A program made the position numbers and the translations under genes. From a virus (Duplodnaviria > Caudoviricetes), in the IMG/VR virus record IMGVR_UViG_3300025767_000018, positions 1 to 59,097 of that record: 59,097 nt of DNA; one strand, written 5' to 3'. The notes under the pieces were generated by a model. It had not been told where the DNA came from. It searched no databases and saw only the letters and a program-made list of their open reading frames with translations. The stretch's first letter is position 1, and the number at the start of each line of letters is the position of its first letter. Positions 19,747-50,971 of this stretch are shown here, in pieces.

Positions 19747-19754
19747 TATTTATC
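19747..19754 (-). promoter_or_regulatory. Late promoter-like GATAAATA
   Basis: TAAATA core overlapping the stop codon of the giant gene. Confidence 0.6.
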
Positions 19755-34700: not shown

Positions 34701-35217
34701 TATATGTACTTTCAACGTCAACAGTATTTCCGGAAATGCCAATTGTTTGTGGGCCCGAAGGCAACCAATAATATTCGCGGAAATTACTAAACTTATCCCA
34801 ATCAATACTAGGGTTCCAAGCATAATATTCTTGCTGATTAACTACACTATGGTTGTCGTTAGATTTATTAAAGTTTGTTAACTGATTTGTAAAATCGTTA
34901 TAATCTTTATAAAAAGTAACATTACCTAACTGATCTTTAATTACTGCTGTAGGTTCTAGCTGATAGTTAAATCTATCAGCACTAACATCTCCAATATAAT
35001 TATCAGTAGGATTAAATGCTTTAGCTGTTTCTCTGCCAATATAACCATTAAGTTTTTCAACTACTCCCGGCTGTATTAATTGATCTAATGTACTATTTAA
35101 AAACTTTTTGTTTGACGGTGTTCTAAAAAATCTAGGAAGGAAAGCTTCACTTTTGCGTTTGTCGCTACTGCCTGGTACTGGCAAATTTGGTTCGTTTTGA
35201 TCGTTGTCGTAAGACAT
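19750..35217 (-). CDS. Giant (5155 aa) modular baseplate wedge/adhesin-like structural protein (gp7 position)
   Basis: 15.5-kb uninterrupted ORF directly after the gp6-like gene; FG-GAP-like blades, W-x4-Y-x2-G-x2-V-x-Y modules, G-x-GY-x3-P repeats, DG(S/T)T-x2-F repeats. Confidence 0.8.
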   Translation of the reverse strand: MSYDNDQNEPNLPVPGSSDKRKSEAFLPRFFRTPSNKKFLNSTLDQLIQPGVVEKLNGYIGRETAKAFNPTDNYIGDVSADRFNYQLEPTAVIKDQLGNVTFYKDYNDFTNQLTNFNKSNDNHSVVNQQEYYAWNPSIDWDKFSNFREYYWLPSGPQTIGISGNTVDVESTYTVRIGENADNETYIFSPDGLTQNPTITLYRGITYKFDIDTPNLPFTIKTQKTLEDGFELDSSSILVFDGVSIQGLEKGVSTLQLGTSTPDVLYYVAANDLDASGTIIVKDISEATFINVETEVIGKKFYKSGNGIELSNGMKVEFTGEVVPATYAQGTFYVEGVGDKINLVSETKLNVPTSFTEDIDIQFDAQGFDRLPYSKAIGYPEDKDYIVINRASIDGNLWSRYNRWFHKSVIEESALSNNESVDIDQLQRAKRPIIEFEANLKLHNFGTSSKLDVDVVDDFTKDAFSIIEGSEGYNVDGIDLADGMRIVFTADPDSLVAGRIFKVKFINFTDPTVGVKRQITLIPETDSIPITNEVVLILNGVTYKGKMLYYTGTDWKLTQDKIKINQAPVFDIFDIDGNSYADTTVYESSTFTGNTVFSYKTGTGAVDSELTIPISYRSINNIGDIVFNFSLLNDSFTYTFKNETFSKKTDIGFLRKYSNLSNFVSVSGWKKVSTPSEQLVIRQYVFDNTITSFPIDMYDNSGELTDLWTKVYLNNKLQFKDNNYTIINDINNIATVNFTNPLSINDVVIIKTRSSATKNENGYYEIPASLERNPANENITEFTLGEVNDHIATIVEQSDTFVGTYPGTSNLRDIGNLTELGRRFVQHSSPMNLALYHMLDNDANVIKSIKFAMNQYTTFKRLFLQTAEDIIFSGTTKLHVDAILEQINKNKTPTQPFFFSDMTPTGATRKLTTTVIDADDKFYPLSAIFSLSTPSRIAVQVYLNEVQLVHGKDYTFNNEGYVIVTATKYPDDVIDIYEYETTNGSFVPPTPSKLGLYPSYEPVKYLDNTYQTPKEVIQGHDGSKIIAFNDYRDDLLLELEKRIYNNIKVVYDNKLLDINSLIGGEHRDTGVTKKHIDRVMLPDFVQWSKLIDQDYTLHNFFDRTNSFTFNYAGSTGPSGKSLPGFWRQIYQQAYDTDRPHTHPWEMLGFSVMPTWWETQYGPAPYTKENLLLWQDLEAGIVRQPNVKYKILNNFKRPGLVNHIPVDSNGNLVSPIESGYINTFDNQLLDRSFIFGDGSPVESAWRSSSQYPFSIISAFAINKPHTLFATGFDRINQVRNVSNELVYKTTGTRIQLTNLLFPNTYEDTSQIYTSGLVNYIANYLTSDVTTSYTTYKTNIKNIKNQLGHKLAGFTDKEKFKLILDSRSPTNDGNVFIPDENYKVFLNTSTPVKTVSYSGVIIERRSDGYVIKGYDNEIASFKYYAPISSQADPSINIGGISESYLIWDSNKTYIPGQNLEYQGAYYRVKSNFRSGQEFDTTNLSKLAALPLIGGRNAFLRKTFNKNIVIESDYGHLFTSIQDVVDFLLGYGNYLEDQGFVFDYYEGDAKVVLNWRHSVNEFLFWTTQNWGEGSVITLSPASAQLKFQTEYAMVDNIFDSFYGYSLLQSDGTKLVQEFSLLGRSPNEFVIRSKDTTANGIYAVKLPLIQKEHALLIDNNTVFGDVIYDTQPGYRQERIKVLGYKTQEWDGSLNIPGFVYDEAKTTSWMPWTDYAIGSIVKYKEFYYSSSTKLTGTESFNAIDWNRLDKKPEAGLYANFEYKTNQFADFYDLDSDNFDTEQQRLSQHLIGYQKRQYLENIINDDVSQYKFYQGMIQDKGTKNALTKLFDVLSSADKDSLEFYEEWAIKAGQYGASEGFTEYELLLDESKFRLTPQPIDLVTSTTGKETDLVYRILPYEVYQKTPNYDHKPFPKKYVDASYVKDAGYVNPDDVRGVATNYNNIADFNFADISRNDYIWVGNDQLSWNVYKHIDTNYRVESVTEGTTSFTLTLTTNADTISVNDVIGLHSFNNYIEYTGQDSSASSTTEKFELEGFYLVSAVDKNVITVLTNNAQDEIPRCFGSITRFLKVRAANITSANNILQESIALDDYIWIDNVNGTGKWKVLKNENLLLEQQQLTKTTTSLDNSFGSALATDDRNTTMLVGAPTEGNGKVYVYNRSSDSLNFSQTQVIEVSDNVAKLYNNWAPEIDYVDEIIIYNGLFYQCITPHSSDAEDGFESNYFVQLPVPSDTLAFGSAVAISPDGNSIIIGSPNASDVKTKYAPGGTFLPNFAYTKGTIVSKDEQLWKSLVDIQPAVQNIEFNSFGSVTQIVDTLDVENDNAVSIPTLVTGNYAINPITAQLAFANQPATHMLIRAPLAHYEGSEENDLIKVAWNQTTYSNQDLPSLASRSPFNGSFANINAEFLEQTHTIQKKIDVVLYINASTNFPAIGDILQTTTASGIVDYVYNDGAELVIYLKDVNGVFNSTDSIFRDDGDFIGEYIKQGPISSVQSNTQFGGFWFIDTPSYTPTVGTENTDQGRGLVFYDVITDSVDSNKLYANSLDYKTNAFSSQNTYNAYIEKLSYQGLPGAYGSNAPFLNNLYVVRAPKMISDEVNQGDLINLYVNQLPQYGTGIVRDLTSIGLSTDITNSVQTVYDVWDGYININYTKFNVDDTPYEPKIGQTVEDLTTGATGIVTYYQRDGLNATLFVKGVVGTWSNGYVFSDNAEIKFKEIPGDPDPTYQVDRTIGQIQYVSLGLPSEGIGKLFVFQSSDIIPLSSGSRLLDIEYWLYQQYEVSGRARLANIPSAVNNEWTQIYQIPADKTGTASGLTNEGMYSVYSKIAPGKYSITENYTVPEKQENFKLGSSIKITKNNNLYRGFIHAGSSLDLDTIGTLDSANDLPTQTSFTVGVRVLTPALNDSTQTLPDLYYNIENIVDGGSNFNINDTIVIRGNLLGGRYSNNDAVLTVTGVSISGTITGVTISGTPYFAGKIDPQISDINTYIVYGNTQDSKWKVNNFIYSWSNNTWTTTQYSPGKLYFIKNGEENGINYNWDYAKNKKFKGTFSEGITYFTDDIVYNEGIIYAAKTNLAPSTFSINEWTAMSDLVDYVGFIPNSTGRNVSDSTTILNQIGLEDFASQFDVSLSGEVLVVNALYSNQTPNQVVVYRSNNGHFEKSQEIPAPDKTSAFGQSISISSDGTLIAISAPLNDDYLENQGIVYIYKQINGTFVLSQTLKSFNNERAELFGWKIEFDGEKLYISAKNADSKSRSYFDNYSTVFDGGFTDFKTINEDAGVIYVYEKIEAELLLAQTIGISNRAVKEFGQNIVAKNNHLYVGLSKEVDISGNYTGRILNFANNKTQPMWTEHSAAKSTVDISKIKKMFLYDTKENLLLTPLDYIDPIQGKVAGVAEQELTFKTYYDPALYDLSTASGTIIDITNSWGSEHIGEVWWNLTNAKFYNPYQGDTIFSTQNWSKVFQGNTIDVYEWVESDVLPSAWDAQADTENGFAKGYSGTSLYGDTAYSTKRKYDNIAGTFITIYYFWVSNKKTVPNVEFRNINISDIADYIKDPVAKGYTFAGLISPTSFVLYNAEGYIKGTDVALSTQFWTIENQDQNIHTQYQIISEGLETSQPNKDIIRKWYDSLIGYDEQDRIVPDPLLSTKQKYGALNTPRQSWFINRTEALKQFIERTNLILNENLIVDDKVFTSLFNFDPAPTEVSNHWDAKVDTIDDLEFIGVARATQAILSPVVINGKISSVNIVDPGRGYRVPPTVTVTGNGTGAILQTAIDTFGRITSVAVTAPGENYNNAPILTVRKFTVLVNSDRTIQGKWGLYERINDPRSWNRIQSQSYNVNLYWDYSNWYASDYSELTEIDYLIDNSYELTSLNNSIGDIVKISSIGSGGWLLLKKIDSQDTEDYTINYSTIGRQNGTIQFKSTLYDSNEAATGFDTISFDTKVYDSEPTIELRIILESIKNDLFIDDLLVKFNSLFFANLRYAFSEQTYIDWAFKTSFIKAKHNVGSLRKDVTFNNDNLPSYESYIKEVKPFGTKVREYLSAYESLDNTSTAVTDFDLPPAYNSVDGKIVPQNVKIQDGVLIGVNADFENYPNKNWLDNSGYKIVKVEVVNPGSGYKTAPVLTLSGSGGAVLKANIGTAGKISSVTVVSPGAGYYSTPTISSLDNIEPGGEVATFSVQLGDNPVRGLYSTVKFDRTTGTYVYTSLSQTETFIASGSEFEFDLIWPMDLLKSNIKVYVNNQEALNSEYTYKNLLDITKGYDRHYGQITFTNAPAINKSVRIEYKKSVDLMQAQDRINNYYTPTTGMPGKDLNQLMTGLDYGGVEVTSLGFGKGQGWDSDGWYEDTWDSYDTTFEDEIFELDGSTISLDLAAPLANATVYNVYLNGVRIDDVNYGTATPVTNPNAICQSITGDGTTTIVFLDNDGLNLANQAGDIIIIRKSTSDGTYLPDPNSYDTSITGGALNYSTATGLNAEDIVIDGDGFVTATTSGGPEELVPGQVLDTIDIKVYERPQNGSSQITSRNYTGDGTTKEFSLDTSPLQANSLFVKVGYNIISAEDYTINYTTKTVTFNIAPVLNAKIHFAILGISGTEILDIDNFIADGSTSKFLTNVRFGTDLQYFIALNGQTLNNVIEESDDSYAYPNNAVVSFATPPEAGSVISYAFFKGDKQNFSEVSIDTFTADGSTTVFDLVQTPFNNEPSAWFSIVKVNNKILNAGYNRRFVTTAEKREYKLEEFQIPPGAVNNKQIKVFLNNKELAYNTEWSFTGTKGSAGSLVRLKPKVNQQDGDVLTVFITNDGEYRYGYFDSANEFVSTPGELYLDSAYNDGDIITVYQFSNHDSQGFDRQQYDAVDRVSLTVGTDDWYTYNHLTAGLIELAKPALDAQYVWVTLNGDLLTPSMHYYVTENKRYVKINISIEENDVIEILQFSNTILSNKYGWRQFKDILNRTHYKRLDDRDGIMLATDLNWYDQSITVTDGTTLPDPVPSTNIPGILFINGERIEYFVRNDNVLSQLRRGTLGTGVKAIYLEGENVYNQSQNATMPYRDETLTSEFLTDGTTATYELNFEPGEDGVNEFEVFVAGKRLRKNAISSYVQPIKNGDAIQVIAPDSPEGDVTLPAEFSIEGSTLTLLSVPEEPDIKVTVVRKTGIIWKDAGIRLSESESDISRFLRAATVDLPR

Positions 35218-38200
35218 TAATAAGCCCCTTTAATTGTGGTCAATCCACTACTTGTTAAACCTGCATTAACTGAAGTTGCATCAGTAACAATTGATCCACT
35301 TGACCGAAGTCTTGTAGCGGTTATACTATCAATTAATTCGATATCAGCAACAGTTGCTCCACTTATAAAAACTTCATCAGATTCTGATTTTATTTCAAAT
35401 AAACTACCAAATGTGCTAGATGCTTGATTTGGAACTATTACAAATGTCACTAGATTTGGCGATAGCTGTTGCATAACGTATGTACTTAATTCTGTAAAAT
35501 AAAACGTTTCGCCAAATTCCCAGTTTTCAAGTGCAAAGAATTCATTAATTGCAGCTATCACCCTAGTTTTAATTTCATTATCATTAATTACAATATCCGG
35601 ATTCTTTACAATTTTAAATTTTGCTTGTAAATCAGACGATGCTATTTCTCCAAACAGTATTTTATACTTAACTGGATGATAAATTATTTCATCACTAATT
35701 GACTTAATATTATTAAGCTGTTGACCGTAGTTTAAATACAGCTGATCACTACTAGGAGCAAAAGGCTTAACAGTTGTTGTGCCGTCAAGATAAAGTCTAA
35801 AATTATCGTCATATGATTTTGTTAACAGATATACGTCTACAATATTACTAACACTTGGATCAATTCTATTACTTGCATCAGCTGCATGAACATAATGAAA
35901 TTTAAGTGTTCCTCGGCCAAGTTTAGCACGATAGAGTTGTGTAGTAGTAAGACTACCAGTTATTTTATTTAATGTTTGAAATAAATTTTCTTGGACAAAA
36001 TAAAATATTTGACCATCGTCATAACTCGATGTGCTAGTTAAATTACTAACAGAAGCAATAACGTTTATACTTCCTACACTGTCTAAGAATGTATATTTTG
36101 CAATTTTTGGGCTTTCTGAAATTATCGTCGGAACCTCTGTTGCAAGATGTCTATATTCATCTATACCGTCAATAGTAGTTGTTTGGAGCTCAAATACATA
36201 TTTTGTTATCGGGTTTTCAGATTCGTTAACAATTTCATCAAATAATTCAGGATTGTCAACTACGCCGTCGTCATCTTCATCAAAGAAACTAACTTGGATT
36301 TTACTACTGTCGACATATCCTTCAGCATCTCTGTATTCTTCTACAATTTCCCAATCAAAGTCAACTGTAAATGGATTAACATTGTCCGGCTTCTTATTAA
36401 TATTTAATACAGAAATTTTATCTTTAATAATCTTGCCTGTGCTAGTATTATAAATTTTATCTGAACTGTCAAAATAAAATCTAATTTCTTTTGCACTTTC
36501 AAATATATACCTACTACCTCTATAAGTAATTGAATACGTTTCACCGTCAGTTTCAAATAACAATAACCAACTTGCATCTAACTGTTGAGTAGTTGCATCA
36601 CCAGTTTTACCAATACTAAAAGGACTATTAATATTTAAATTGTCAGTAGTAATTACCCGCCATTCTCCTATATTAACATCAAATCTTAAACCAAAACTAT
36701 TGTAAGCAAATACTTGATCAATTACTTGCAATGAAACAGCAGATTGTAATTCTGTAGCTAATCTTGGTATTATTTCAGTGAGTATTGGACGGTTTGACGA
36801 ATTTAAAAGATCACCAGGAATATTATCATTAAGTATTATTGGCCCAGTTCCGTCAGTATTCGTTGTAGTACCGTCGTCAACAACACTTACAATCTTAGTC
36901 CATTTATATAAAGTGCCATTTACAGGTATTTCTCCCGATGTTGGTATAGAAGTTAACTTGTTATTATTTTTACTTTGAAAATATTTTCCACTAGGTGCTA
37001 CAAACTTAACTAGCGTTCCAGGCTTTAATAATTTTAAAGTACTTGCTGTAAACGCTCCTATCTGTAACCGTGATCCGGCTGTATTAGTAAAATAACCAGT
37101 AGTCTGATTGGTATTGTCTGATTGGTTGTTCCACATTACACCTAAATCTCCTACAAGAATTTTAGGAAAACTATTATAATAATAATTTTTTATTTGGTTA
37201 TTAGTTAGTATTGGTTCTATTATATTTGCAATAGCACCTTCTATGTCAGTTTTAGTTATAAAGTTAAATTTTGATTTAGGTGTTAAAAACTCTTTAGTTA
37301 GAATTCCGTCTATACCAAACAAATTAGTTTTAGAATATTTTCCTGTTGCATCAACTAGGTCTAAATACCGACTAATTCCACTAGCTGTTCTATTAACACT
37401 TTTTACTTTAATAATTTCTTGGCTTATTGACAGCGGTGCCACTTGATAATCTTCAGCAGTTATCATTCTATTTTGTGTGTAATACGTTGACGGAGCATTG
37501 CGTTTAATACTATCGTTTGTTTCGCTTGTACTTGCATTGTCAACAGTATACTTCAATGAAAATACCATTGTAATTTGTTCTATTTTGCCAGTCTTACTTA
37601 CATAAGGAATCTTAATACTAACACCTCGCATGTCTGCTGGTTCGATAATTAATCGTTGATTTTTACTGCTTCTATAGTATACTCTAAAATTACCTTGAGG
37701 CAAATTACCAAATGTACCGTCAGAGAAGATTAAACTAATTCTGTCATTTGCTCGTGTCAATACACTATAAATATTCCTAATACTTTTACTTAAACTATTA
37801 TATATTACATTGTTGCCTTCTACAGCATCAACTTTACTCCATAGTTCTTCTTCTAATCCAAAATTATCAACTTTATAAAGCCAAACATCTGAGTTATTAA
37901 CATCTGTTGCATCAATTGCAACAACTTGGTTAGTACTAGGACGGTCTATTGTAAATGTGCCTTGGTCTAATGCACCTTGTCTAAAGTGGCAAAAATACCC
38001 AGTGTTAGAGCTTGCTGGGCCTTTGCCATCATTTCTATAAAGGAATGCAAAATTATTTCCTGGAAACGGTGCTTCTTCTTTAATTTCACCGTTGTCTATG
38101 TCAGTTGATACAATTTCAAACTTACTAGTTGACCCACTAATAGTCTTATTAAAGCCATAAACAGGTAAGTCGGTATTTGAACTGTTTAATCTGTATTGTT

Positions 38201-38753
38201 CTGTTGGCACACCGGCTACAGTTTCTTTTTTAGACGGGCGGCCAATATTAGAATTAACCGGAAGTGCAGCATTTAAAATTTTAGTAAATTGTTCTTGCCA
38301 GTTAGGATTACTAGGATCATTCCAAACAACAGTTTGGTTAGATAAATTTAAATTATTAGAGTCCCTAACACTTTCTGTTGAATTTACACTTTCAATTTTA
38401 AACAGTCCATTAGATGCTTGATTACGTTTAGGATTATAAGAAAGTAATCTTGCTAAACGTAGCACACTTTCTCGGCGTTCTGCAAGTTCTAAGAAGTTTT
38501 CTCTAGCATTTAAATCAGTACGGAAAGCAATATTTTGGCCTAGGAAAGCAATTAGGTCAATAAGTGCAAGGTACTCCGAACTTTCAATGTAGTCATTAAA
38601 GTCTTCTGGGTAATTTTGTCGAATATAATTGATCATTGTCCGACGTAAATTATCAAAATCATAAGATTTGAAATCTGCATTTCTATAGCTTTGATAGATA
38701 CGCTTCCAATCTTCTGCTACTAATAAACGGTTCTGTCTGTCTGTACTTGACAT
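35217..38753 (-). CDS. Baseplate wedge subunit, T4 gp6-like
   Basis: SYDFDNLR, DFNDYIESS, ENFLELAERRESVLRLARLLSYNPKR, FSDGTFG, QNRMITAEDY. Confidence 0.85.
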   Translation of the reverse strand: MSSTDRQNRLLVAEDWKRIYQSYRNADFKSYDFDNLRRTMINYIRQNYPEDFNDYIESSEYLALIDLIAFLGQNIAFRTDLNARENFLELAERRESVLRLARLLSYNPKRNQASNGLFKIESVNSTESVRDSNNLNLSNQTVVWNDPSNPNWQEQFTKILNAALPVNSNIGRPSKKETVAGVPTEQYRLNSSNTDLPVYGFNKTISGSTSKFEIVSTDIDNGEIKEEAPFPGNNFAFLYRNDGKGPASSNTGYFCHFRQGALDQGTFTIDRPSTNQVVAIDATDVNNSDVWLYKVDNFGLEEELWSKVDAVEGNNVIYNSLSKSIRNIYSVLTRANDRISLIFSDGTFGNLPQGNFRVYYRSSKNQRLIIEPADMRGVSIKIPYVSKTGKIEQITMVFSLKYTVDNASTSETNDSIKRNAPSTYYTQNRMITAEDYQVAPLSISQEIIKVKSVNRTASGISRYLDLVDATGKYSKTNLFGIDGILTKEFLTPKSKFNFITKTDIEGAIANIIEPILTNNQIKNYYYNSFPKILVGDLGVMWNNQSDNTNQTTGYFTNTAGSRLQIGAFTASTLKLLKPGTLVKFVAPSGKYFQSKNNNKLTSIPTSGEIPVNGTLYKWTKIVSVVDDGTTTNTDGTGPIILNDNIPGDLLNSSNRPILTEIIPRLATELQSAVSLQVIDQVFAYNSFGLRFDVNIGEWRVITTDNLNINSPFSIGKTGDATTQQLDASWLLLFETDGETYSITYRGSRYIFESAKEIRFYFDSSDKIYNTSTGKIIKDKISVLNINKKPDNVNPFTVDFDWEIVEEYRDAEGYVDSSKIQVSFFDEDDDGVVDNPELFDEIVNESENPITKYVFELQTTTIDGIDEYRHLATEVPTIISESPKIAKYTFLDSVGSINVIASVSNLTSTSSYDDGQIFYFVQENLFQTLNKITGSLTTTQLYRAKLGRGTLKFHYVHAADASNRIDPSVSNIVDVYLLTKSYDDNFRLYLDGTTTVKPFAPSSDQLYLNYGQQLNNIKSISDEIIYHPVKYKILFGEIASSDLQAKFKIVKNPDIVINDNEIKTRVIAAINEFFALENWEFGETFYFTELSTYVMQQLSPNLVTFVIVPNQASSTFGSLFEIKSESDEVFISGATVADIELIDSITATRLRSSGSIVTDATSVNAGLTSSGLTTIKGAY

Positions 38754-45762: not shown

Positions 45763-46773
45763 TTGTTTAAAAAAGCTGCGGTATTTACAGACATACACTT
45801 TGGATTAAAAGGCAATAGTAAGGTACACAATCAAGATTGTGAAGATTTTATTGATTGGTACATCAAACAAGCACAAGATGCCGGTTGCGAAACTGGTATT
45901 TTCTGTGGAGATTGGCATCATAATAGAAATAGTTTAAATTTAACTACTATGGACGCCACTGTTCGATGTATGGAGAAGCTAGGTGCTGCTTTTGAGCAGT
46001 TTTTCTTCTTTGATGGCAATCATGACTTGTACTACAAAGACAAACGTGACGTTAATAGTACAGCGTTTGCTAAACACATTCCGGGTATTACGTTTATTGA
46101 TGAAATTACCACAATTGAAGACGTTACTATTGTTCCTTGGCTTGTAGGTGACGAATGGAAGAAGCTACGCAAGCTGAAAAGTAAGTATGTATTCGGACAC
46201 TTTGAACTTCCTAGCTTCTACATGAACGCTATGGTACAAATGCCCGATCACGGAGAGCTTAGAGCAGAAGACTTTGCTAATCAGTCGTATGTGTTTAGTG
46301 GTCACTTCCATAAACGTCAACAACAGGGTGTTGTACACTACTTAGGTAACGCATTTCCACATAACTATGCTGATGCGTGGGATGACGAACGTGGTATGAT
46401 GATACTTGATCGAGAAAATGACAAGGCTCCAGAGTATATTGATTGGCCGCAATGTCCTAAGTATCGTACAATTAAGCTAAGTCGACTAATCGACGAAGCT
46501 GATACGTTTATTAAACCTAATATGTACCTACGGGTTAACTTAGACTTGCCAATTAGTTATGAAGAAGCTAGTTTTATTAAAGAAACTTTCATTAATAACT
46601 ATAATTGTCGTGAAATTAGTTTAATTCCACAAAAACAGTTAGAAGAAATTAGTACAGAACTAAACATTGCACAATTTGAAAGTGTTGATCAAATTGTTGC
46701 TGGCGAAATTGCCGCAATCGACTCAGACAACTTCAATAAGAAGATGCTATTGGACATTTATAACGAACTATGA
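45763..46773 (+). CDS. gp47: Recombination endonuclease gp47 (Mre11/SbcD family), TTG start
   Basis: TDIHFG, GDWHH, GNHD, FGHFE and SGHFH metallophosphoesterase motifs. Confidence 0.93.
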   Translation: MFKKAAVFTDIHFGLKGNSKVHNQDCEDFIDWYIKQAQDAGCETGIFCGDWHHNRNSLNLTTMDATVRCMEKLGAAFEQFFFFDGNHDLYYKDKRDVNSTAFAKHIPGITFIDEITTIEDVTIVPWLVGDEWKKLRKLKSKYVFGHFELPSFYMNAMVQMPDHGELRAEDFANQSYVFSGHFHKRQQQGVVHYLGNAFPHNYADAWDDERGMMILDRENDKAPEYIDWPQCPKYRTIKLSRLIDEADTFIKPNMYLRVNLDLPISYEEASFIKETFINNYNCREISLIPQKQLEEISTELNIAQFESVDQIVAGEIAAIDSDNFNKKMLLDIYNEL

Positions 46774-48542
46774 TAAAAATTAAAGATCTAACAGTACGTA
46801 ACTTCATGAGTGTGGGCAATCAAACCCAAGCAGTGAACTTTAACCGAGAACAACTAACACTTGTACTAGGTGAAAACCTAGATCAAGGTGGCGACGATAG
46901 CGGATCACGCAACGGCACTGGTAAAACTACTATCATTAATGCGTTATCATACGCATTATATGGCAAAGCACTTACAAATATCAGAGCTAACAATTTAATT
47001 AATAAAACTAATAGTAAAGGCATGTTAGTTACACTCCACTTTGAAAAGAACGGTGTTGATTATCGTGTCGAGCGCGGTCGTGGTCCTAATCTATTAAAGT
47101 TTTTTGTTGATGATCAAGAACAAGAAATGACAGACGAGTCACAAGGTGACAGTCGTAAGACGCAAGAGTTTATTAACAACTTGTTAGACATGAGTCACGA
47201 CATGTTTAAGCATATTGTTGCACTAAACACTTATACTGAGCCGTTTTTGTCAATGAGGCAGAATGATCAACGTGCTATTATCGAACAGTTGCTTGGTATT
47301 ACTATCCTAAGTGAAAAAGCAGATGCTCTTAAAGAACAAACTAAGCAAACTAAAGATGCTATCACTGAAGAAACATTAAAAATTAATGCTATCCAGAGTG
47401 CAAATGAAAAGATTCAAACAACTATTGATAGCTTAGGCCGTACACAACGTGCATGGCTTTCTAAGAAAGATCAAGACTGTGTTAAATTACAAACTGGCAT
47501 TACTGAATTAGAAAAGGTAGACATCGATGCAGAACTAACTGCGCACGATCAACTTTCAAACTGGACACAGCATAACAATGCTATTTTGGCTCTTAAAAAA
47601 GAATTAAGCACATTAGAACCAGCACTAGTACGTGCAGATAATAGTGTTAAAAAGGCAAATAAAGACATTACAGATCTCGATGATGCTACTTGTTACACAT
47701 GTGGTCAAGAACTACATGCAGACAAAAAAGCAGAAATTTCTTTACGTAAAAGTAAAGAACTAGCTGATGCTATTGCATATCAATCAGAAATTACTGTTAA
47801 AGTAAATGATGTTATAAAAGGGCTTGGCGAAATCGGCGACATCAACGGTAAGCCTACAACGTTTTATGACACTGCTAAAGAAGCATATGACCATAGACAA
47901 AATGTTGATAGCTTAAAACAAGCGTTAGCAAATAAACAAGAAGACACTGATCCGTATCAATCACAAATTGACGAATTAAACGATGCAGCAATGCAAGATA
48001 TTGATTGGTCGTCAGTTAATACACTTACTGATTATAAAGAACACCAAGACTTCTTGCTCAAGTTGCTAACAAACAAAGATAGTTTTATCCGTAAGAAGAT
48101 TATCGATCAAAACTTGATGTATCTTAACAATAGATTGTCTTACTATCTTGACAAACTAGGATTGCCGCATCAAGTTGTATTCCAAAACGATCTTGCTGTT
48201 GAAATTCAGCAGCTAGGACAAGATTTAGACTTTGATAACTTGTCACGCGGAGAACGTAACAGACTTATTTTAGGAATGAGCTTTGCATTCCGTGACGTTT
48301 GGGAAAGCCTATATCAAAAGATTAACTTAATGTTTATTGACGAACTTATCGATAGCGGTATGGACACAGCAGGTGTTGAAAGTGCATTAGGTGTTCTTAA
48401 GAAGATGGGTAGAGAAGGTGACAAAAATGTTTATCTTATCTCTCACAAGGACGAACTAGTTGGAAGAGTTAATTATGTAATGAAAGTAGTAAAAGAAAAC
48501 GGCTTTACAAGTTACGAAAACGATATTGATATTATAGAATAA
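46770..48542 (+). CDS. gp46: Recombination ATPase gp46 (Rad50/SbcC family)
   Basis: NFMSVG, NGTGKT Walker A, coiled coil with CYTCGQ zinc hook, LSRGE signature, MFIDE Walker B, ISH. Confidence 0.95.
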   Translation: MIKIKDLTVRNFMSVGNQTQAVNFNREQLTLVLGENLDQGGDDSGSRNGTGKTTIINALSYALYGKALTNIRANNLINKTNSKGMLVTLHFEKNGVDYRVERGRGPNLLKFFVDDQEQEMTDESQGDSRKTQEFINNLLDMSHDMFKHIVALNTYTEPFLSMRQNDQRAIIEQLLGITILSEKADALKEQTKQTKDAITEETLKINAIQSANEKIQTTIDSLGRTQRAWLSKKDQDCVKLQTGITELEKVDIDAELTAHDQLSNWTQHNNAILALKKELSTLEPALVRADNSVKKANKDITDLDDATCYTCGQELHADKKAEISLRKSKELADAIAYQSEITVKVNDVIKGLGEIGDINGKPTTFYDTAKEAYDHRQNVDSLKQALANKQEDTDPYQSQIDELNDAAMQDIDWSSVNTLTDYKEHQDFLLKLLTNKDSFIRKKIIDQNLMYLNNRLSYYLDKLGLPHQVVFQNDLAVEIQQLGQDLDFDNLSRGERNRLILGMSFAFRDVWESLYQKINLMFIDELIDSGMDTAGVESALGVLKKMGREGDKNVYLISHKDELVGRVNYVMKVVKENGFTSYENDIDIIE

Positions 48543-48745
48543 TGATAGAAGATGACATTCACGATCAATTAACCAAAGCGTACTTAGAATACTTTAAGGC
48601 GAACGAAAATTTTGAATCTCGTTTGTCTCATCGTACACATTTATCAAGTAGAAAATGGTTACGAGAAATTAGAAAATTAGCAAAACTAAGGCAAGAAGAA
48701 ATACATGCTACATATGCAGCCAAGAAGGCAGCAGAAAAGCAATAG
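48542..48745 (+). CDS. Small basic hypothetical protein (67 aa)
   Basis: TAATG overlap with gp46; predicted helical and K/R-rich. Confidence 0.65.
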   Translation: MIEDDIHDQLTKAYLEYFKANENFESRLSHRTHLSSRKWLREIRKLAKLRQEEIHATYAAKKAAEKQ

Positions 48746-48761
48746 GCACAATAAGTATGTT

Positions 48762-49196
48762 ATGCAATGGACTTATCAAGGCAAAACAATAGACCAACTA
48801 CCGGAAGGTTGTGAAGCATTTGTATACCTAATAACAAACAAAGTCAATGGCATGATGTACGTAGGCAAAAAACTAGCAAAATTTAAAGTAACAAAGAAAC
48901 CACTCAAAGGCAAGAAAAACAAAAGACGTAGCACTAAAGAAAGTGACTGGCAAACTTATTACGGTTCCAATGATAGACTTAATGCAGACGTTTTAGAGTT
49001 AGGCGAAGAAAATTTCATAAGAGAAATTATTCACATTTGTCCTAGCAGAGGCATAGCAAGTTACTTAGAGGCACGAGAGCAGTTTGAACGCAGAGTACTC
49101 GAAACAGATGAATACTACAACGGTATCATAAATGTTAGAGTTGGCGGATCAAAAATTCTTAAAGAACATCTACAGGCAAATCATTCCAACACCTAA
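48762..49196 (+). CDS. Stand-alone GIY-YIG family nuclease (144 aa)
   Basis: FVYLITN..NGMMYVGK, YYGS, REIIH, YLEAREQ, YYN; likely start MQWTY 4 nt after the AATAAGTA late-promoter variant. Confidence 0.8.
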   Translation: MQWTYQGKTIDQLPEGCEAFVYLITNKVNGMMYVGKKLAKFKVTKKPLKGKKNKRRSTKESDWQTYYGSNDRLNADVLELGEENFIREIIHICPSRGIASYLEAREQFERRVLETDEYYNGIINVRVGGSKILKEHLQANHSNT

Positions 49197-49604
49197 GGTT
49201 AGCGGGCCAGTTTAGAAATACCGCTGTGGAAAAAGCTCTCGTATAGAAGCACACGTACATATTGATCGACTCCCCAGAGGGAGGAAGCCACCAAACAAAT
49301 TGGGCTCACTGGTTGATATAGATTGCATGTTGGCAGTCGAAAAACACAACATAGTTCATAAAAACCCTTTAGCAACAGGAACGAAGCGAGGGAATATTGT
49401 ATACTATATTGTACATTAACTAGTTTAATGTATATTATATTGTACATAATGTCGACGGAGGATGGGAAAGGTCAGAGCCCATTGAACTTGTGTATAAAAA
49501 ATTACCTCTTTCCAATGTCTCGGCTGTGACAGACTCACATGAAGCTCAGATTAGACGGAACCCTTAAACAGGTTCCGTCTGACTAAAACAATCTACATGA
49601 AACT
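49197..49604 (+). ncRNA. Candidate large structured non-coding RNA/cis element (unassigned family)
   Basis: Largest non-coding gap in the window; about 48% GC over 49201-49340 by hand count; many complementary segments including long-range pairings and a 12-bp hairpin. Confidence 0.55.
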
Positions 49605-49608
49605 TAAA

Positions 49609-49729
49609 CATTATTACATTCGTAATAATGCAATTATAATTCATTTACATTATTTAAATAAAACGAAGTGTTATAGTTTGAGCGTTAGCGAAAACTTGTA
49701 TGAACTTGTTCATACACTAAGTATCTTAG
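49609..49729. repeat. Cluster of short inverted repeats/hairpins
   Basis: CATTATTAC-attc-GTAATAATG; AGTTT-GAGCGTTAGCGA-AAACT; TGTATGAA-cttg-TTCATACA; CTAAG-tat-CTTAG. Confidence 0.85.
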
Positions 49730-49736
49730 ATAAATA
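49729..49736 (+). promoter_or_regulatory. Late promoter-like GATAAATA
   Basis: TAAATA core upstream of the AAGGA SD of 49766. Confidence 0.6.
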
Positions 49737-49765
49737 ACTTTAATATAATTAAGGATTAGTCACGA

Positions 49766-50971
49766 ATGAAAGTACATCACATATTATCTGAAACATTAGA
49801 CGTAAAGCAAATTGACGGTATGTGGAGAGTATTTGATACTGTTAAAAATGCTGTTGTAGGTGATATTGGATTTGCAACGGCTGGCGAAGCTGAGGCTGAA
49901 CGAGATAGAGTCAGGGCCCGACCAGCAGCGGATACAGGTGCTAACAATAGAGCTAATACTCCTTCTCAAAATTCATTCTCTGCTGGTGCTCGGCCTGGAA
50001 CTCCTAACTCTAGTCAACTAACTAGGGGAGAGCAACGTAAACTTTCTAGATCTGGTAGTATTACTCGCGGCGGTGTTACCTATACTCGAGCAAACATTGC
50101 TGCTGCTGATGCTGAGCTTAAACTTAAAGTTGAGCCTGGATCTTTTGACAACAACAAACCTAATAGTAGTAAAAAAATAAATGATGACTGGCTTTCTAAA
50201 GCTAAAGAAGGTGCTGCAAAATCCTTTAAAAGTAAAGCATTTCAAAGTTTTGGAGGACTTCTTAAAGGCACTGCACTAACAAAAATACAAGCTATTTTTA
50301 ATGCTATGGTACTTGAAGAAACATTAGACGCATACTTACGAGCTGTTAGAGAATGGGGCACAAGTTTAAATGCAAACGATTCTGCTGGAGTAGCAAATTT
50401 TCAAAAAGCTGAAGCTGGAGATAAAAGTGCTGTGCTACCACCTAAGGTACAGGCTGCATATGTAGAATCAGTAAGACGATCTACTGAGCTCTTTATTGAA
50501 GGTATAGTAGGTCTTGTACTGACTTTGGGTCTTGCAGCAATACCAATAATTGGATTTTTTGGGTTAGGCACAGGCGGCCTTGGCTGGATTGCTAGTCTTA
50601 TTGCAGGTGGTGCACTTGTTTGGGGCGGCTCTACGTTAGTATACGAAATTCTAAGAAAAACCGGAGTAACTAATTCTATATCTAAATGGATTGGTAGTGA
50701 ATTTTTAGATCCGCCATATGTAATAACATTAGCATTAGGCGTAGATGGCTTTCAAGATCAACTAGGAGCAAAATTAGATATGTTTAGTAATGGCACTCTT
50801 GGACAGTTTGTTAGAGATGACGAATCTATTGAAGAATCAAATTCTCTAGGAGATTTTAAAGTTGACTCAGCTGTAGCAGATGAAGCAATTAAAGATTTTA
50901 TCAAATCTGATCCTAAATTAATAAAAGCATTTAGAGATGGTAAGAAAAAACTAGCTGCTAAAACAGATTAA
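49766..50971 (+). CDS. Hypothetical late protein with hydrophobic Gly-rich hairpin; possible internal head/ejection protein
   Basis: MKVHHILSE N-terminus; GIVGLVLTLGLAAIPIIGFFGLGTGGLGWIASLIAGGALVWGG segment. Confidence 0.6.
   Translation: MKVHHILSETLDVKQIDGMWRVFDTVKNAVVGDIGFATAGEAEAERDRVRARPAADTGANNRANTPSQNSFSAGARPGTPNSSQLTRGEQRKLSRSGSITRGGVTYTRANIAAADAELKLKVEPGSFDNNKPNSSKKINDDWLSKAKEGAAKSFKSKAFQSFGGLLKGTALTKIQAIFNAMVLEETLDAYLRAVREWGTSLNANDSAGVANFQKAEAGDKSAVLPPKVQAAYVESVRRSTELFIEGIVGLVLTLGLAAIPIIGFFGLGTGGLGWIASLIAGGALVWGGSTLVYEILRKTGVTNSISKWIGSEFLDPPYVITLALGVDGFQDQLGAKLDMFSNGTLGQFVRDDESIEESNSLGDFKVDSAVADEAIKDFIKSDPKLIKAFRDGKKKLAAKTD

What the first reader, a model, noticed from the sequence alone, without database searches (positions are those of the whole stretch)
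48750..49604. Minimal GIY-YIG nuclease directly followed by a ~400-nt pseudoknotted structured element: candidate nuclease-RNA system
Seen: in a window with almost no intergenic space, the GIY-YIG stop (49196) is followed by about 570 non-coding bases, GC-enriched at the 5' end (about 48% over 49201-49340). Local pairings are AGCGG 49201-05/CCGCT 49221-25; TCGACT 49266-71 plus GCCA 49287-90 against TGGCAGTCGA 49331-40, with a small hairpin at the junction; GGAAAG 49465-70/CTTTCC 49508-13; an AT-rich hairpin at 49412-32; and TTAGACGGAACC/GGTTCCGTCTGA (49551-82) flanked by the direct repeat ACATGAA(G/A)CT. Crossing long-range pairings are GCCAGT 49206-11/ACTGGT 49308-13, TGGGCTC 49301-07/GAGCCCA 49475-81, AGTTCA 49353-58/TGAACT 49483-88 and ACACA 49344-48/TGTGT 49489-93. 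The nuclease has only the catalytic domain, with no NUMOD/HTH DNA-binding tail as in intron GIY-YIG homing endonucleases, but carries a long K/R-rich loop (KKLAKFKVTKKPLKGKKNKRR). Inference: the gene and element are co-transcribed from the AATAAGTA motif at 48750 and form a ribonucleoprotein, possibly RNA-guided or RNA-regulated by analogy with IscB/TnpB omega-RNAs. Alternatively the element is an unassigned catalytic or structural phage RNA.
Basis: partly seen in the sequence, partly recalled or inferred. Interest (0 to 1): 0.88.

Follow-up and report, generated by a model that had tools for sequence, protein, structure and literature searches.

The report
Large twin-box phage RNA beside nuclease
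The gene-free stretch after a small DNA-cutting-enzyme gene of this uncultured marine T4-like phage encodes a real, knotted RNA of about 400-440 bases that matches no catalogued RNA family; the enzyme looks like a fixed neighbour and not a proven partner, and the RNA's job is unknown.

Summary
The observation largely holds. 49197-49765 is non-coding, and its first ~440 nt is a real + strand structured RNA. Relatives lie in at least 130 distinct viral-contig loci.

Thirteen helices, one of them a pseudoknot, are backed by compensatory changes. Pairing is 96.2% and 91.2%, against 28-45% when partners are slid, and 0 of 500 shuffles reach the observed values. G-U outnumbers A-C by 571 to 78 cells, which fixes the strand. 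No small ORF is conserved.

Four others have no support.

No Rfam 15 family matches, and there is no tRNA or tmRNA.

Two identical 7-10-nt "boxes" flank hairpin P9. They mutate in parallel, and I found no complementary partner.

The nuclease-RNA reading is only partly supported:
- 98 of 100 loci found by the RNA alone have the GIY-YIG gene, but 97 of 97 also have gp46, so this is synteny.
- The RNA occurs without the nuclease in L116 and L125.
- The nuclease occurs without this RNA in Melnitz, B23 and L053.

Function is unknown. This scan has flagged the same family before on other DNA.

The parts
48762..49196 (+). GIY-YIG nuclease gene, 144 aa, catalytic domain only, with an invariant K/R-rich insertion
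   Evidence: Pfam PF19835 at 2.3e-32 and phrog_447 at 2.3e-36. Twenty-four homologues have 79% mean column identity. AF2 model pLDDT 82.4. Best PDB folds are GIY-YIG proteins, but weak, at E 0.34-0.43.
48689..49178 (+). One-strand cluster of the word AGGCA (9 copies) that ends where the RNA begins
   Evidence: Nine copies here, against 43 on the + strand of the whole 59-kb window. Across 131 loci there is about 1 copy per 100 nt from -900 to -200 before the core word, against about 0.1 elsewhere. The reverse word TGCCT is near 0. Homologous genes without the RNA hold 1, 1 and 0 copies.
49190..49198 (+). Conserved junction word (CACCTAAGG here, mostly CACATAAGG) at the 5' edge of the RNA
   Evidence: It is conserved in the consensus of A1. 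It is kept in L116 and L125, which have no GIY-YIG gene. In L016, L019 and L022 the ORF stops about 21 nt before it, so it is not only a stop codon.
49197..49640 (+). The structured RNA as a whole. The 5' edge is at the junction word. The 3' edge is inferred after hairpin P10.
   Evidence: Conservation profile, covariation, strand. A hairpin of 5 bp or more follows box 2 in 92 of 115 loci, with a T-rich tail in half of them.
49201..49225 (+). P1 hairpin (49201-05 / 49221-25)
   Evidence: 98.4% paired; GC80 AU6 CG2 at one pair.
49226..49254 (+). P2 (49226-28 / 49252-54) enclosing the variable hairpin P2a (49235-37 / 49248-50)
   Evidence: UA75/AU12; GC67/CG18; CG61/UA26.
49259..49319 (+). P3 (49259-67 / 49311-19) enclosing a variable insert with hairpin P3a (49270-74 / 49279-83)
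   Evidence: UA63/CG26; AU59/GC28; UA60/CG27.
49321..49338 (+). P4 hairpin (49321-25 / 49334-38)
   Evidence: All 5 pairs change on both sides; 96.8% paired.
49344..49493 (+). P5, a long-range two-part helix (49344-48 + 49353-58 with 49483-88 + 49489-93) that closes the core domain
   Evidence: GC62 AU18 UA9; UA56 CG24 GC10; AU45 UA35 CG9. The outer part was not in the model and still covaries: AU43/UA26, CG43/GC28, AU31/CG31.
49365..49392 (+). P6 hairpin (49365-68 / 49389-92) with the invariant loop word GGAACGA
   Evidence: 100% paired; UA49/CG41; CG68/GC20. Invariant columns.
49397..49447 (+). P7, a variable-length AT-rich hairpin domain whose outer stem covaries
   Evidence: UA42 CG33 AU14; GC38 AU31 UA11. 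Its length differs by tens of nt between loci.
49448..49482 (+). Nearly invariant core segment; it holds the 18-nt word used for the scans
   Evidence: Invariant columns in 111 and in 56 sequences.
49457..49509 (+). Pseudoknot PK1 (49457-62 / 49504-09), which crosses P5
   Evidence: UA87 GC5 CG1 and GC80 GU12. The window itself carries the compensated G-C form. It was not in the model.
49534..49544 (+). Box 1 (CTCACATGAAG)
   Evidence: Shared word with box 2; variants change in parallel.
49553..49580 (+). P9 hairpin. The 3' arm is invariant. The 5' arm varies through G-U pairs.
   Evidence: AU82/GU11, UG60/CG26, AU68/GU24, CG87/UA6.
49590..49601 (+). Box 2 (TCTACATGAAA)
49609..49630 (+). P10 hairpin, a possible 3' end or terminator of the RNA
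   Evidence: UA29/AU23, UA56/GC11, UA55/CG9. T-rich tail in about half of the loci.
49672..49716 (+). 3' module: a conserved word (GAGCGTTAGCGAAAAC with a small stem at 49682-83 / 49688-89) plus hairpin P12 (49698-704 / 49709-15). It lies before a variable gene slot and may be a separate element.
   Evidence: All 7 pairs of P12 covary; CG86/UA13 in the small stem. The word is unique in the window. The next gene is replaced in 74 of 76 loci.

Best explanation
49197 to about 49640 is a gene for a free-standing, + strand, non-coding RNA of about 400-440 nt. It belongs to a large, uncatalogued family of marine phage RNAs.

Shown:
- It folds into P1-P4, then a core closed by the long-range helix P5 and knotted by PK1, then hairpin P9.
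- Long unpaired stretches of the core are invariant.
- P9 is flanked by two identical single-stranded words, the twin boxes.

Inferred:
- The RNA is made as the tail of the GIY-YIG transcript, or from a start at the conserved junction word.
- It acts as a folded RNA in its own right.
- The core serves as a rigid scaffold that presents the two boxes to one outside partner that reads the same word twice. That partner could be a two-site or dimeric protein, or the complementary DNA strand of the locus.
- The GIY-YIG nuclease is a conserved neighbour at a fixed place (gp47, gp46, orf67, GIY-YIG, RNA, variable gene, baseplate hub), not a dedicated partner or an RNA-guided enzyme.

What the RNA does for the phage is not known.
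For: Family:
- The element follows the gene in 50 of 80 loci chosen by the protein, at 70-87% identity.
- Model R1 finds one full-length copy, on the expected strand, in 94 of the 100 sources searched, at 144-277 bits.

Structure:
- On A3, 96.2% of cells pair, against 35-41% when partners are slid. 27 of 40 pairs change on both sides. 579 cells do so, against 179 in shuffles, and 0 of 500 shuffles are as high.
- On the unfitted alignment A1, 91.2% pair, against 28-44% slid. 630 cells change on both sides, against 206 in shuffles, 0 of 500.
- PK1 and the outer part of P5 were not in the model and still covary.

RNA, not protein or DNA:
- G-U 571 cells against A-C 78 cells.
- The window's small ORFs stay open in 0-3 of about 101-106 relatives.

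Twin boxes:
- The box is the longest shared word in 149 of 151 loci, and it has at least 12 variants.
- The best partner of each variable box-1 column but one (49540, 3 variant rows) is the same column of box 2, with the same letter.
- There is no third or reverse-complement copy at a fixed place within 3 kb.

Neighbour, not partner: (98 of 100; 97 of 97; 68 of 76).

Expression: contigs of 4 RNA libraries from 4 studies cover the gene and the 5' part of the RNA and bridge the stop codon.
Against: - No function was tested, and no partner for the boxes was found. Parallel change of the boxes could have other causes.
- The GIY-YIG protein is unusually conserved: 79% column identity and an invariant basic loop.
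- A second, very different RNA class also sits right after the same gene, in L024, L032, L035, L037 and L082. The pairing of gene and RNA is therefore older than one RNA class, which argues for some functional tie.
- The AGGCA cluster runs through the nuclease gene and stops at the RNA start. It is absent from homologues without the RNA. This again links the two.
- The RNA-library data are contigs only. They give no ends and no strand, and DNA carry-over is possible.
- The sequences are related, so the shuffle controls overstate significance. The slid controls are the safer ones.
Confidence: 0.5

Rival explanations
1. Nuclease-RNA particle. The GIY-YIG protein binds the RNA through its basic loop, and the RNA guides, aims or regulates cleavage, as omega-RNAs do for IscB and TnpB.
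For: - The gene and the RNA are adjacent on the same strand in 98 of 100 loci found by the RNA alone.
- A second RNA class sits at the same place after the same gene.
- The protein has no DNA-binding tail and has an invariant K/R loop.
- RNA-library contigs bridge the gene and the RNA.
Against: - gp46 co-occurs just as well, in 97 of 97 loci.
- The RNA occurs without the nuclease in L116 and L125.
- The nuclease occurs without the RNA in Melnitz, B23 and L053, and the family is common in cyanophages.
- I saw no hypervariable guide-like segment at either end in the alignments.
- The boxes are only 7-10 nt long and occur twice in the RNA itself.
Confidence: 0.12
2. Start site for DNA copying or recombination. 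Transcription through the locus gives a folded RNA that re-pairs with its own template. Because box 1 equals box 2, the RNA can pair with the DNA complement of the other box, about 58 nt away. It would then serve as a primer or R-loop. The one-strand AGGCA cluster would be protein or nuclease sites beside it.
For: - Pairing with the complementary DNA strand is a simple base-pairing reason for two direct words to stay identical with no RNA partner.
- The AGGCA cluster is strand-specific, about 10-fold enriched and ends at the RNA start.
- The locus lies next to the recombination genes gp46 and gp47.
- Earlier notes of this scan reached the same idea on other genomes. They are a lead, not independent support.
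Against: - Nothing here shows replication: no skew switch was tested, and there are no ends or intermediates.
- At least 13 covarying helices and a pseudoknot are far more structure than known primer RNAs need. This comparison is recalled (ColE1 RNA II, T4 oriF), not tested.
- In L116 and L125 the RNA lies before terminase genes.
Confidence: 0.15
3. Cis-acting RNA or DNA: a long structured 3' UTR that stabilises, processes or terminates the GIY-YIG message. It might also set expression of the variable gene downstream, like the promoter-plus-stem-loop cassettes (PeSLs) of T4-type phages.
For: - The RNA starts at the stop codon.
- Contigs bridge the gene and the RNA.
- The 3' module with hairpin P12 lies before a gene slot that is replaced in 74 of 76 loci.
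- A sigma-70-like match lies at 49613-49640.
- PeSLs are described in PMC2839356 and PMC4122927. I saw only the titles and the starts of the abstracts in the search listing.
Against: - A 400-nt knotted core with invariant unpaired stretches is far more than a terminator or stabiliser needs.
- The same RNA follows unrelated genes in L116 and L125.
- The 3' module word occurs once in the window, not on both sides of the slot.
Confidence: 0.1
4. Self-processing ribozyme. The conserved core cuts or joins the transcript at the two boxes and releases or skips the P9 segment.
For: - Its size, its pseudoknot and its many invariant unpaired nucleotides are the marks of large ribozymes. This is general knowledge and was not tested.
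- Two identical words could be two identical processing sites.
Against: - No internal guide covaries with the boxes.
- No joint that skips P9 was seen in the RNA contigs. There was no coverage there, so this counts for little.
- No Rfam ribozyme family matches.
Confidence: 0.08
5. Known RNA missed by the models (degenerate group I intron, tmRNA piece, RNase P-like RNA), or a purely DNA-level hairpin cluster such as a pac, cos or ori site with no RNA role.
For: - GIY-YIG genes often sit in group I introns; NCBIfam grpIintron_endo matches at 2.1e-5, below its cut-off.
- The fold energy is low on both strands.
Against: - No Rfam match at gathering score in the window, and none of note at E<=10 in three local scans.
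- ARAGORN finds nothing.
- The flanking ORFs are complete and different genes, so there are no split exons.
- G-U against A-C is 571 to 78, which shows selection on + strand RNA.
Confidence: 0.03

Closest known systems
GOLLD and ROOL: large ornate RNAs of phages, prophages and bacteria with unknown function. I saw the title and the start of the abstract of 10.1101/2024.12.08.627333 / PMC12286853 in the listing.
   Same: Several hundred nucleotides, many covarying helices with pseudoknots and invariant unpaired stretches, carried by phages, no known function.
   Different: There is no sequence or structure homology: no Rfam family reaches its gathering score in the window, and none scores at E<=10 locally. 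This RNA sits at a fixed place after a GIY-YIG gene in T4-like phages. It has twin boxes that change in parallel. Whether it forms multimers is untested.
Omega-RNAs of IscB and TnpB (formerly HEARO), the OMEGA systems. I saw only the title and the start of the abstract of PMC13565253 in the listing.
   Same: A large structured RNA encoded right beside a small nuclease gene on the same strand.
   Different: The nuclease here is GIY-YIG, not RuvC or HNH. I saw no guide segment and no transposon ends. The RNA occurs without the nuclease and the nuclease without the RNA.
Free-standing Seg-type GIY-YIG homing endonucleases of T4-like phages (Pfam PF19835 SegE_GIY-YIG). Their habit of sitting beside conserved RNA genes, such as segB in the T4 tRNA cluster, is recalled and comes from no call.
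   Same: The protein matches PF19835 at 2.3e-32. It is a small nuclease gene next to a highly conserved RNA gene, which would make a good homing target.
   Different: It is only 144 aa with no DNA-binding tail. It is highly conserved and sits at a fixed place in 98 of 100 loci, not scattered as selfish endonuclease genes usually are.
Polynucleobacter-1 RNA motif (Rfam RF01718), listed in the table of PMC2864571 (passage seen). Earlier notes of this scan named it as the closest family.
   Same: An aquatic-metagenome RNA motif of unknown role.
   Different: Tested here: RF01718 gives no match in the whole 59-kb record at E<=10. It is absent from the three local Rfam scans (and the gathering-score scan).
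PeSL promoter-plus-stem-loop cassettes of T4-type phages (PMC2839356, PMC4122927; titles and starts of abstracts seen).
   Same: This applies only to the 3' module at 49672-49716: a conserved short motif with a stem-loop beside a gene slot that is swapped between relatives.
   Different: The module occurs once here, not on both sides of the slot. The 400-nt RNA itself is unlike a PeSL.

Membership tests
Any Rfam 15 family | A covariance-model score at or above the family's gathering score | tested here: not met
   There are 0 matches in the whole window. At E<=10 only chance-level hits appear: Ysr35 at 16.9 bits against a cut-off of 428, and miRNA families.
Polynucleobacter-1 (RF01718) | A match to the 141-position model (gathering score 37 bits) | tested here: not met
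   No match at E<=10 in the 59-kb record.
Group I intron with a GIY-YIG ORF | An intron core recognisable by its model | tested here: not met
   The Rfam scans list no intron family.
Group I intron with a GIY-YIG ORF | A host gene split into two exons around the element | tested here: not met
   Upstream lie complete ORFs (gp46, orf67, GIY-YIG). Downstream lies a different complete ORF, which is replaced in 74 of 76 relatives.
tRNA / tmRNA | Detection by ARAGORN or by the Rfam tmRNA models | tested here: not met
   0 genes; no Rfam hit.
RNA-guided nuclease system of the OMEGA type | The RNA and the nuclease are mutually dependent: neither is found without the other | tested here: not met
   The RNA occurs without GIY-YIG in L116 and L125. 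GIY-YIG occurs without R1 in Melnitz, B23 and L053.
RNA-guided nuclease system of the OMEGA type | A variable guide segment at one end of a conserved scaffold | tested here: inconclusive
   The variable parts I saw are internal hairpins (P2a, the P3 insert, P7), not an end segment. The true RNA ends are unknown.
RNA-guided nuclease system of the OMEGA type | RNA-dependent target cleavage | not testable with these tools
   This needs biochemistry.
GIY-YIG superfamily, SegE-like domain (PF19835) | A profile match over the catalytic domain | tested here: met
   112.3 bits against a cut-off of 25, over residues 3-123. The best PDB folds are GIY-YIG proteins, but weak.
Seg-type homing endonuclease | A C-terminal DNA-binding domain | tested here: not met
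   The protein is 144 aa and has no domain beyond the catalytic one.
Seg-type homing endonuclease | Sporadic presence among close relatives | tested here: not met
   It is present in 98 of 100 RNA-bearing loci, at one fixed place.
T4 endonuclease II (DenA) | Sequence or fold similarity to the solved enzyme. That such a structure is in the PDB is recalled. | tested here: not met
   phmmer against the PDB gives 0 hits at E<=1. The Foldseek list shows no endonuclease II entry. The only link is position: in Melnitz the homologue follows nrdB.

The most novel reading that the evidence does not exclude
The RNA, the twin boxes, the one-strand AGGCA zone and the conserved catalytic-only GIY-YIG gene form one machine of a kind not yet described. 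There are two versions. In one, the nuclease is aimed or controlled by a large folded RNA. In the other, the folded RNA re-pairs, through its two identical boxes, with the complementary DNA strand of its own locus and so starts DNA copying or recombination. Three observations keep this open. A second, unrelated-looking RNA core sits after the same gene and has the same box logic. The AGGCA zone is missing from nuclease genes that lack the RNA. No cis partner for the boxes was found.
Probability: 0.2. Interest if true: 0.92.

Novelty: new variant of a known kind. Interest (0 to 1): 0.78.

Why it matters
Large, knotted, highly conserved RNAs are rare. Most of those understood so far turned out to be ribozymes, guides or parts of central machines.

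This one is carried by an abundant lineage of uncultured marine T4-like phages, and also by unrelated small phages. It matches no family of Rfam 15. It shows a feature I found in no paper: two short words that stay identical to each other while they mutate.

The work here gives a defined structure, boundaries, a search model and clear exceptions to the nuclease link. That makes the RNA directly testable by in-vitro folding, cryo-EM, binding and cleavage assays. It also warns against reading fixed gene order as a functional nuclease-RNA system.

Tried and rejected
Ideas and searches that led nowhere:
- Known RNA: three Rfam scans, RF01718 and ARAGORN all came up empty.
- Cultured carriers: blastn of the 569 nt against 50,697 phage records gave no match at E<=1e-3. 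R1 on the whole Melnitz genome gave none at E<=1.
- Coding: the small ORFs are not kept in relatives. A reading of the boxes as start codons is dropped, because indels follow box 1 and variants such as ACAGGAA, ACATAAT and ACAGAAAG lack a start codon.
- Partner for the boxes:
  - There is no 7-mer reverse complement at a fixed place within 3 kb.
  - No complementary column shows up by mutual information.
  - A TTCAT after P10 pairs with box 2 in only 37 of 78 standard-box loci and does not follow the variants.
  - The box is not a genome-wide motif: 3 matches against 5.8 expected.
- DenA idea: the Melnitz homologue follows nrdB, but neither PDB sequence nor fold supports it.
- Cellular genomes: the 18-mer gave 15 stretches in the genome collection. 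My own arithmetic expects about 17 by chance in 596 Gb. Only 3 are real by R1: L204, L215 and L218, which are contigs binned into MAGs and may be phage.
- PeSL-like second copy of the 3' module: none.
- WAGGCAW is not enriched window-wide: 31 matches against 38.5 expected. The enrichment is local.
- RNA runs: nothing was laid on 49561-49900, and only one contig reaches 49526.
No DNA run was laid beside them, so this is at most a hint.
- Literature: searches. Passages were read in PMC9004378, PMC2864571, PMC10690425 and 10.64898/2026.09.22.753630. None mentions a GIY-YIG-linked RNA in its main text.
- My first regular expression for the 3' module found nothing because it was badly written. I draw no conclusion from it.
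Full report
**Setting.** The window is a 59-kb fragment of an uncultured virus record. The genes around the finding are gp47-like (45763-46773), gp46/Rad50-like (46770-48542), a 67-aa ORF, the 144-aa GIY-YIG gene (48762-49196), a 569-nt gap, a 401-aa ORF of no known family, and a baseplate hub gene on the other strand. The nearest cultured relative of the nuclease is Methylophilales phage Melnitz, at 72.6% identity.

**The observation.**
- The gap is real.
- It is richer in G+C at its 5' end: 0.46 and 0.44 against about 0.33-0.39 nearby.
- It folds better than shuffles on both strands, with z = -3.15 and -3.92.
- That alone does not show an RNA, so I collected relatives.

**Relatives.**
- Of 80 viral loci chosen by the protein, 50 carry the element directly after the gene, at 70-87% identity.
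- Nearly all of these loci have 400-900 nt without an ORF of 80 aa or more after the gene.
- After removing duplicates, 130 distinct loci remain, and 112 of them were found by the RNA word alone.
- No record among 50,697 deposited phage genomes matches the 569 nt.

**Structure.**
- A covariance model (R1, 270 positions) was built from 56 diverse sequences of the part 49318-49608. It finds exactly one full-length copy, on the expected strand, in 94 of the 100 sources searched.
- On that alignment my structure pairs 96.2% of cells, against 35-41% when every partner is slid by 1-3 columns. 27 of 40 pairs show changes on both sides. No shuffle in 500 reaches the observed values.
- Two helices that were not part of the model, and so were not favoured by the alignment, also covary. 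One is the outer part of the long-range helix P5 (AU43/UA26, CG43/GC28, AU31/CG31). The other is the pseudoknot PK1 (UA87, GC5, CG1; the window carries the compensated G-C form).
- On the plain MAFFT alignment of the whole element (111 sequences, 107 distinct rows), the 5' helices P1, P2, P2a, P3 and P3a and the 3' helices P10, P11a and P12 pair in 91.2% of cells, against 28-44% slid. 630 cells change on both sides, against 206 in shuffles.
- The sequences are related, so the shuffle counts are not probabilities. The slid controls and the many independent pair types are the stronger argument.

- Right: P1, P9 and both parts of the long-range helix (49353-58/49483-88 and 49344-48/49489-93).
- Without support: GCCAGT/ACTGGT, TGGGCTC/GAGCCCA, GGAAAG/CTTTCC and TCGACT/AGTCGA pair no better than shuffles, 69.1% against 68.9%.
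- The last four pairs of GGAAAG/CTTTCC never vary and so cannot be judged. They would cross the covarying PK1.
- About 18 of the 107 distinct rows lack the P1-P2 domain and carry a different short 5' domain.

**RNA, strand and coding.**
- In the supported helices G-U cells outnumber A-C cells by 571 to 78. The + strand gives 92.9% standard pairs and the - strand 85.8%.
- P9 shows this most clearly: its 3' arm is invariant, while its 5' arm varies through G-U pairs.
- The five small ORFs of the window in this stretch stay open in 0-3 of 101-106 relatives. About 60% of relatives differ in length by a number that is not a multiple of three.

**Twin boxes.**
- P9 is flanked by CTCACATGAAG (49534-44) and TCTACATGAAA (49590-601).
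- In 149 of 151 loci the longest word shared by the stretches before and after P9 is this box. The two exceptions are one locus with only TGAA and the window itself. In the window a chance 8-mer is longer, although both boxes are present.
- The box has at least 12 variants, among them ACATGAA, ACATAAT, ACATGATG, ACGTGAA, ACAGGAA and GCATAAAG. Each variant occurs in both boxes of the same RNA.
- The column that shares most information with a variable box-1 column is, for every such column but one (49540, 3 variant rows), the same column of box 2, with the same letter.
- I found no complementary partner.
- The box is not a general motif of this genome.
- Identity without a partner in the RNA points to an outside reader that sees both boxes, or to pairing with the complementary DNA strand. 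This is inference.

**Known families.** Rfam 15 gives nothing at gathering score in the window and nothing of note at E<=10 in local scans. RF01718, which earlier notes of this scan named as the closest family, gives no match at E<=10. There is no tRNA or tmRNA. The two-piece tmRNA that the Melnitz paper reports is a different locus (passages of PMC9004378).

**Is the nuclease the partner?**
- Among loci found by the RNA alone that have at least 700 nt upstream, 98 of 100 have the GIY-YIG gene.
- However, 97 of 97 loci with enough flank also have gp46, 84 of 97 have the 67-aa ORF, and 68 of 76 have the baseplate hub downstream. Only 2 of 76 have a homologue of the 401-aa ORF. The locus is one fixed place in one phage lineage, followed by a variable gene slot.
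- The two loci without the nuclease (L116, L125) come from a different kind of phage. There the RNA lies 0.6-1.2 kb before genes for the small and large terminase subunits.
- Conversely, Melnitz has the nuclease after nrdB and no R1 match in its whole genome. Cyanophage B23 has about 110 nt and then a gene on the other strand. L053 has a promoter-like site and ORFs after the gene.
- These facts argue against an obligatory pair.

**Two facts that argue for some tie.**
- Loci L024, L032, L035, L037 and L082 carry, after the same gene, an RNA with a very different core that R1 does not find. It has the same short 5' domain, the same logic of two identical boxes around a hairpin, and the same 3' module.
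- The protein is far more conserved than selfish endonucleases usually are: 79% column identity, with an invariant K/R loop. Its fold is GIY-YIG-like but close to nothing solved; the best Foldseek E-value is 0.34.

**Expression.** Six metatranscriptome runs hold 13-23% of the sampled words of 48700-49900. Contigs of four of them, from four studies, cover the nuclease gene and the 5' part of the RNA, and contigs of each of the four runs bridge the stop codon. This fits co-transcription. Contigs show neither strand nor ends, and DNA may be present in such libraries.

**Other features.**
- The word AGGCA occurs 9 times in 48689-49174, against 43 times on the + strand of the whole window.
- Across 131 loci its density is about 1 per 100 nt from 900 to 200 nt before the core word, against about 0.1 elsewhere. 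It falls to zero at the RNA start, and the reverse word is almost absent.
- Nuclease genes without the RNA hold 1, 1 and 0 copies. The word falls in different reading frames and also in non-coding DNA. It is therefore a nucleotide-level signal tied to the RNA. Its meaning is unknown.
- The junction word (CACATAAGG in most loci) is kept even where there is no nuclease gene, and where the ORF stops 21 nt earlier.

**Verdict.**
- A real RNA of a new family: about 0.95.
- The fuller reading, a stand-alone folded RNA that presents twin boxes to an outside reader, with the nuclease as a neighbour: 0.5.
- Rivals: origin or recombination start 0.15, nuclease-RNA particle 0.12, cis-acting UTR or cassette 0.10, ribozyme 0.08, missed known RNA or DNA-only element 0.03.
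- This scan has met the same family before on other genomes. I re-derived the structure, the exceptions to the nuclease link and the box behaviour from my own calls. I could not confirm the suggested kinship with RF01718.

Noticed in passing
window 48689-49178 (+), and -900 to -200 before the core word in 131 loci: A one-strand cluster of AGGCA, about 10 times the background, with the reverse word near zero. It ends exactly at the RNA start and is missing from homologous nuclease genes that lack the RNA. Meaning unknown.
   Followed up: partly
L024:3424-3850, L082, L032, L037, L035 (after the GIY-YIG stop): A second class of RNA after the same gene. Its core is different and R1 does not find it. 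It has the same short 5' domain, two identical boxes around a GC-rich hairpin, and the same 3' module.
   Followed up: partly
window 49766-50971 (+): The 401-aa ORF after the RNA has no family in Pfam, PHROGs, NCBIfam or PADLOC. A homologue is present in only 2 of 76 related loci, while the baseplate hub beyond it is kept in 68 of 76. This is a variable gene slot.
   Followed up: partly
L116:6693-7203 and L125:1260-1743: The RNA lies in non-T4 phage contigs, before terminase small and large subunit genes and without a GIY-YIG gene. L116 has an HNH endonuclease gene 1.3 kb upstream.
   Followed up: partly
L204, L215, L218 (genome collection): Full-length copies of the RNA (256 and 210 bits) lie on contigs binned into a Crocinitomicaceae MAG and a Neomarinimicrobiota MAG. 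These are probably phage contigs in the bins. The other 12 matches of the 18-mer are chance.
   Followed up: no
window 19750-35217 (-): A single ORF of 5155 aa, followed by one of 1178 aa (35217-38753), in the structural part of the window.
   Followed up: no
No DNA run was laid beside them, so this is only a hint.
   Followed up: no
window 49470-49476 and 49578-49584: The invariant core word GGTCAGA is complementary to TCTGACT at the foot of P9: 111 of 111 cells pair at 6 of the 7 positions and 109 of 111 at the other, and there is only G-U/G-C variation. This may be a tertiary pairing that docks the P9 and box arm on the core. Covariation cannot test it.
   Followed up: partly
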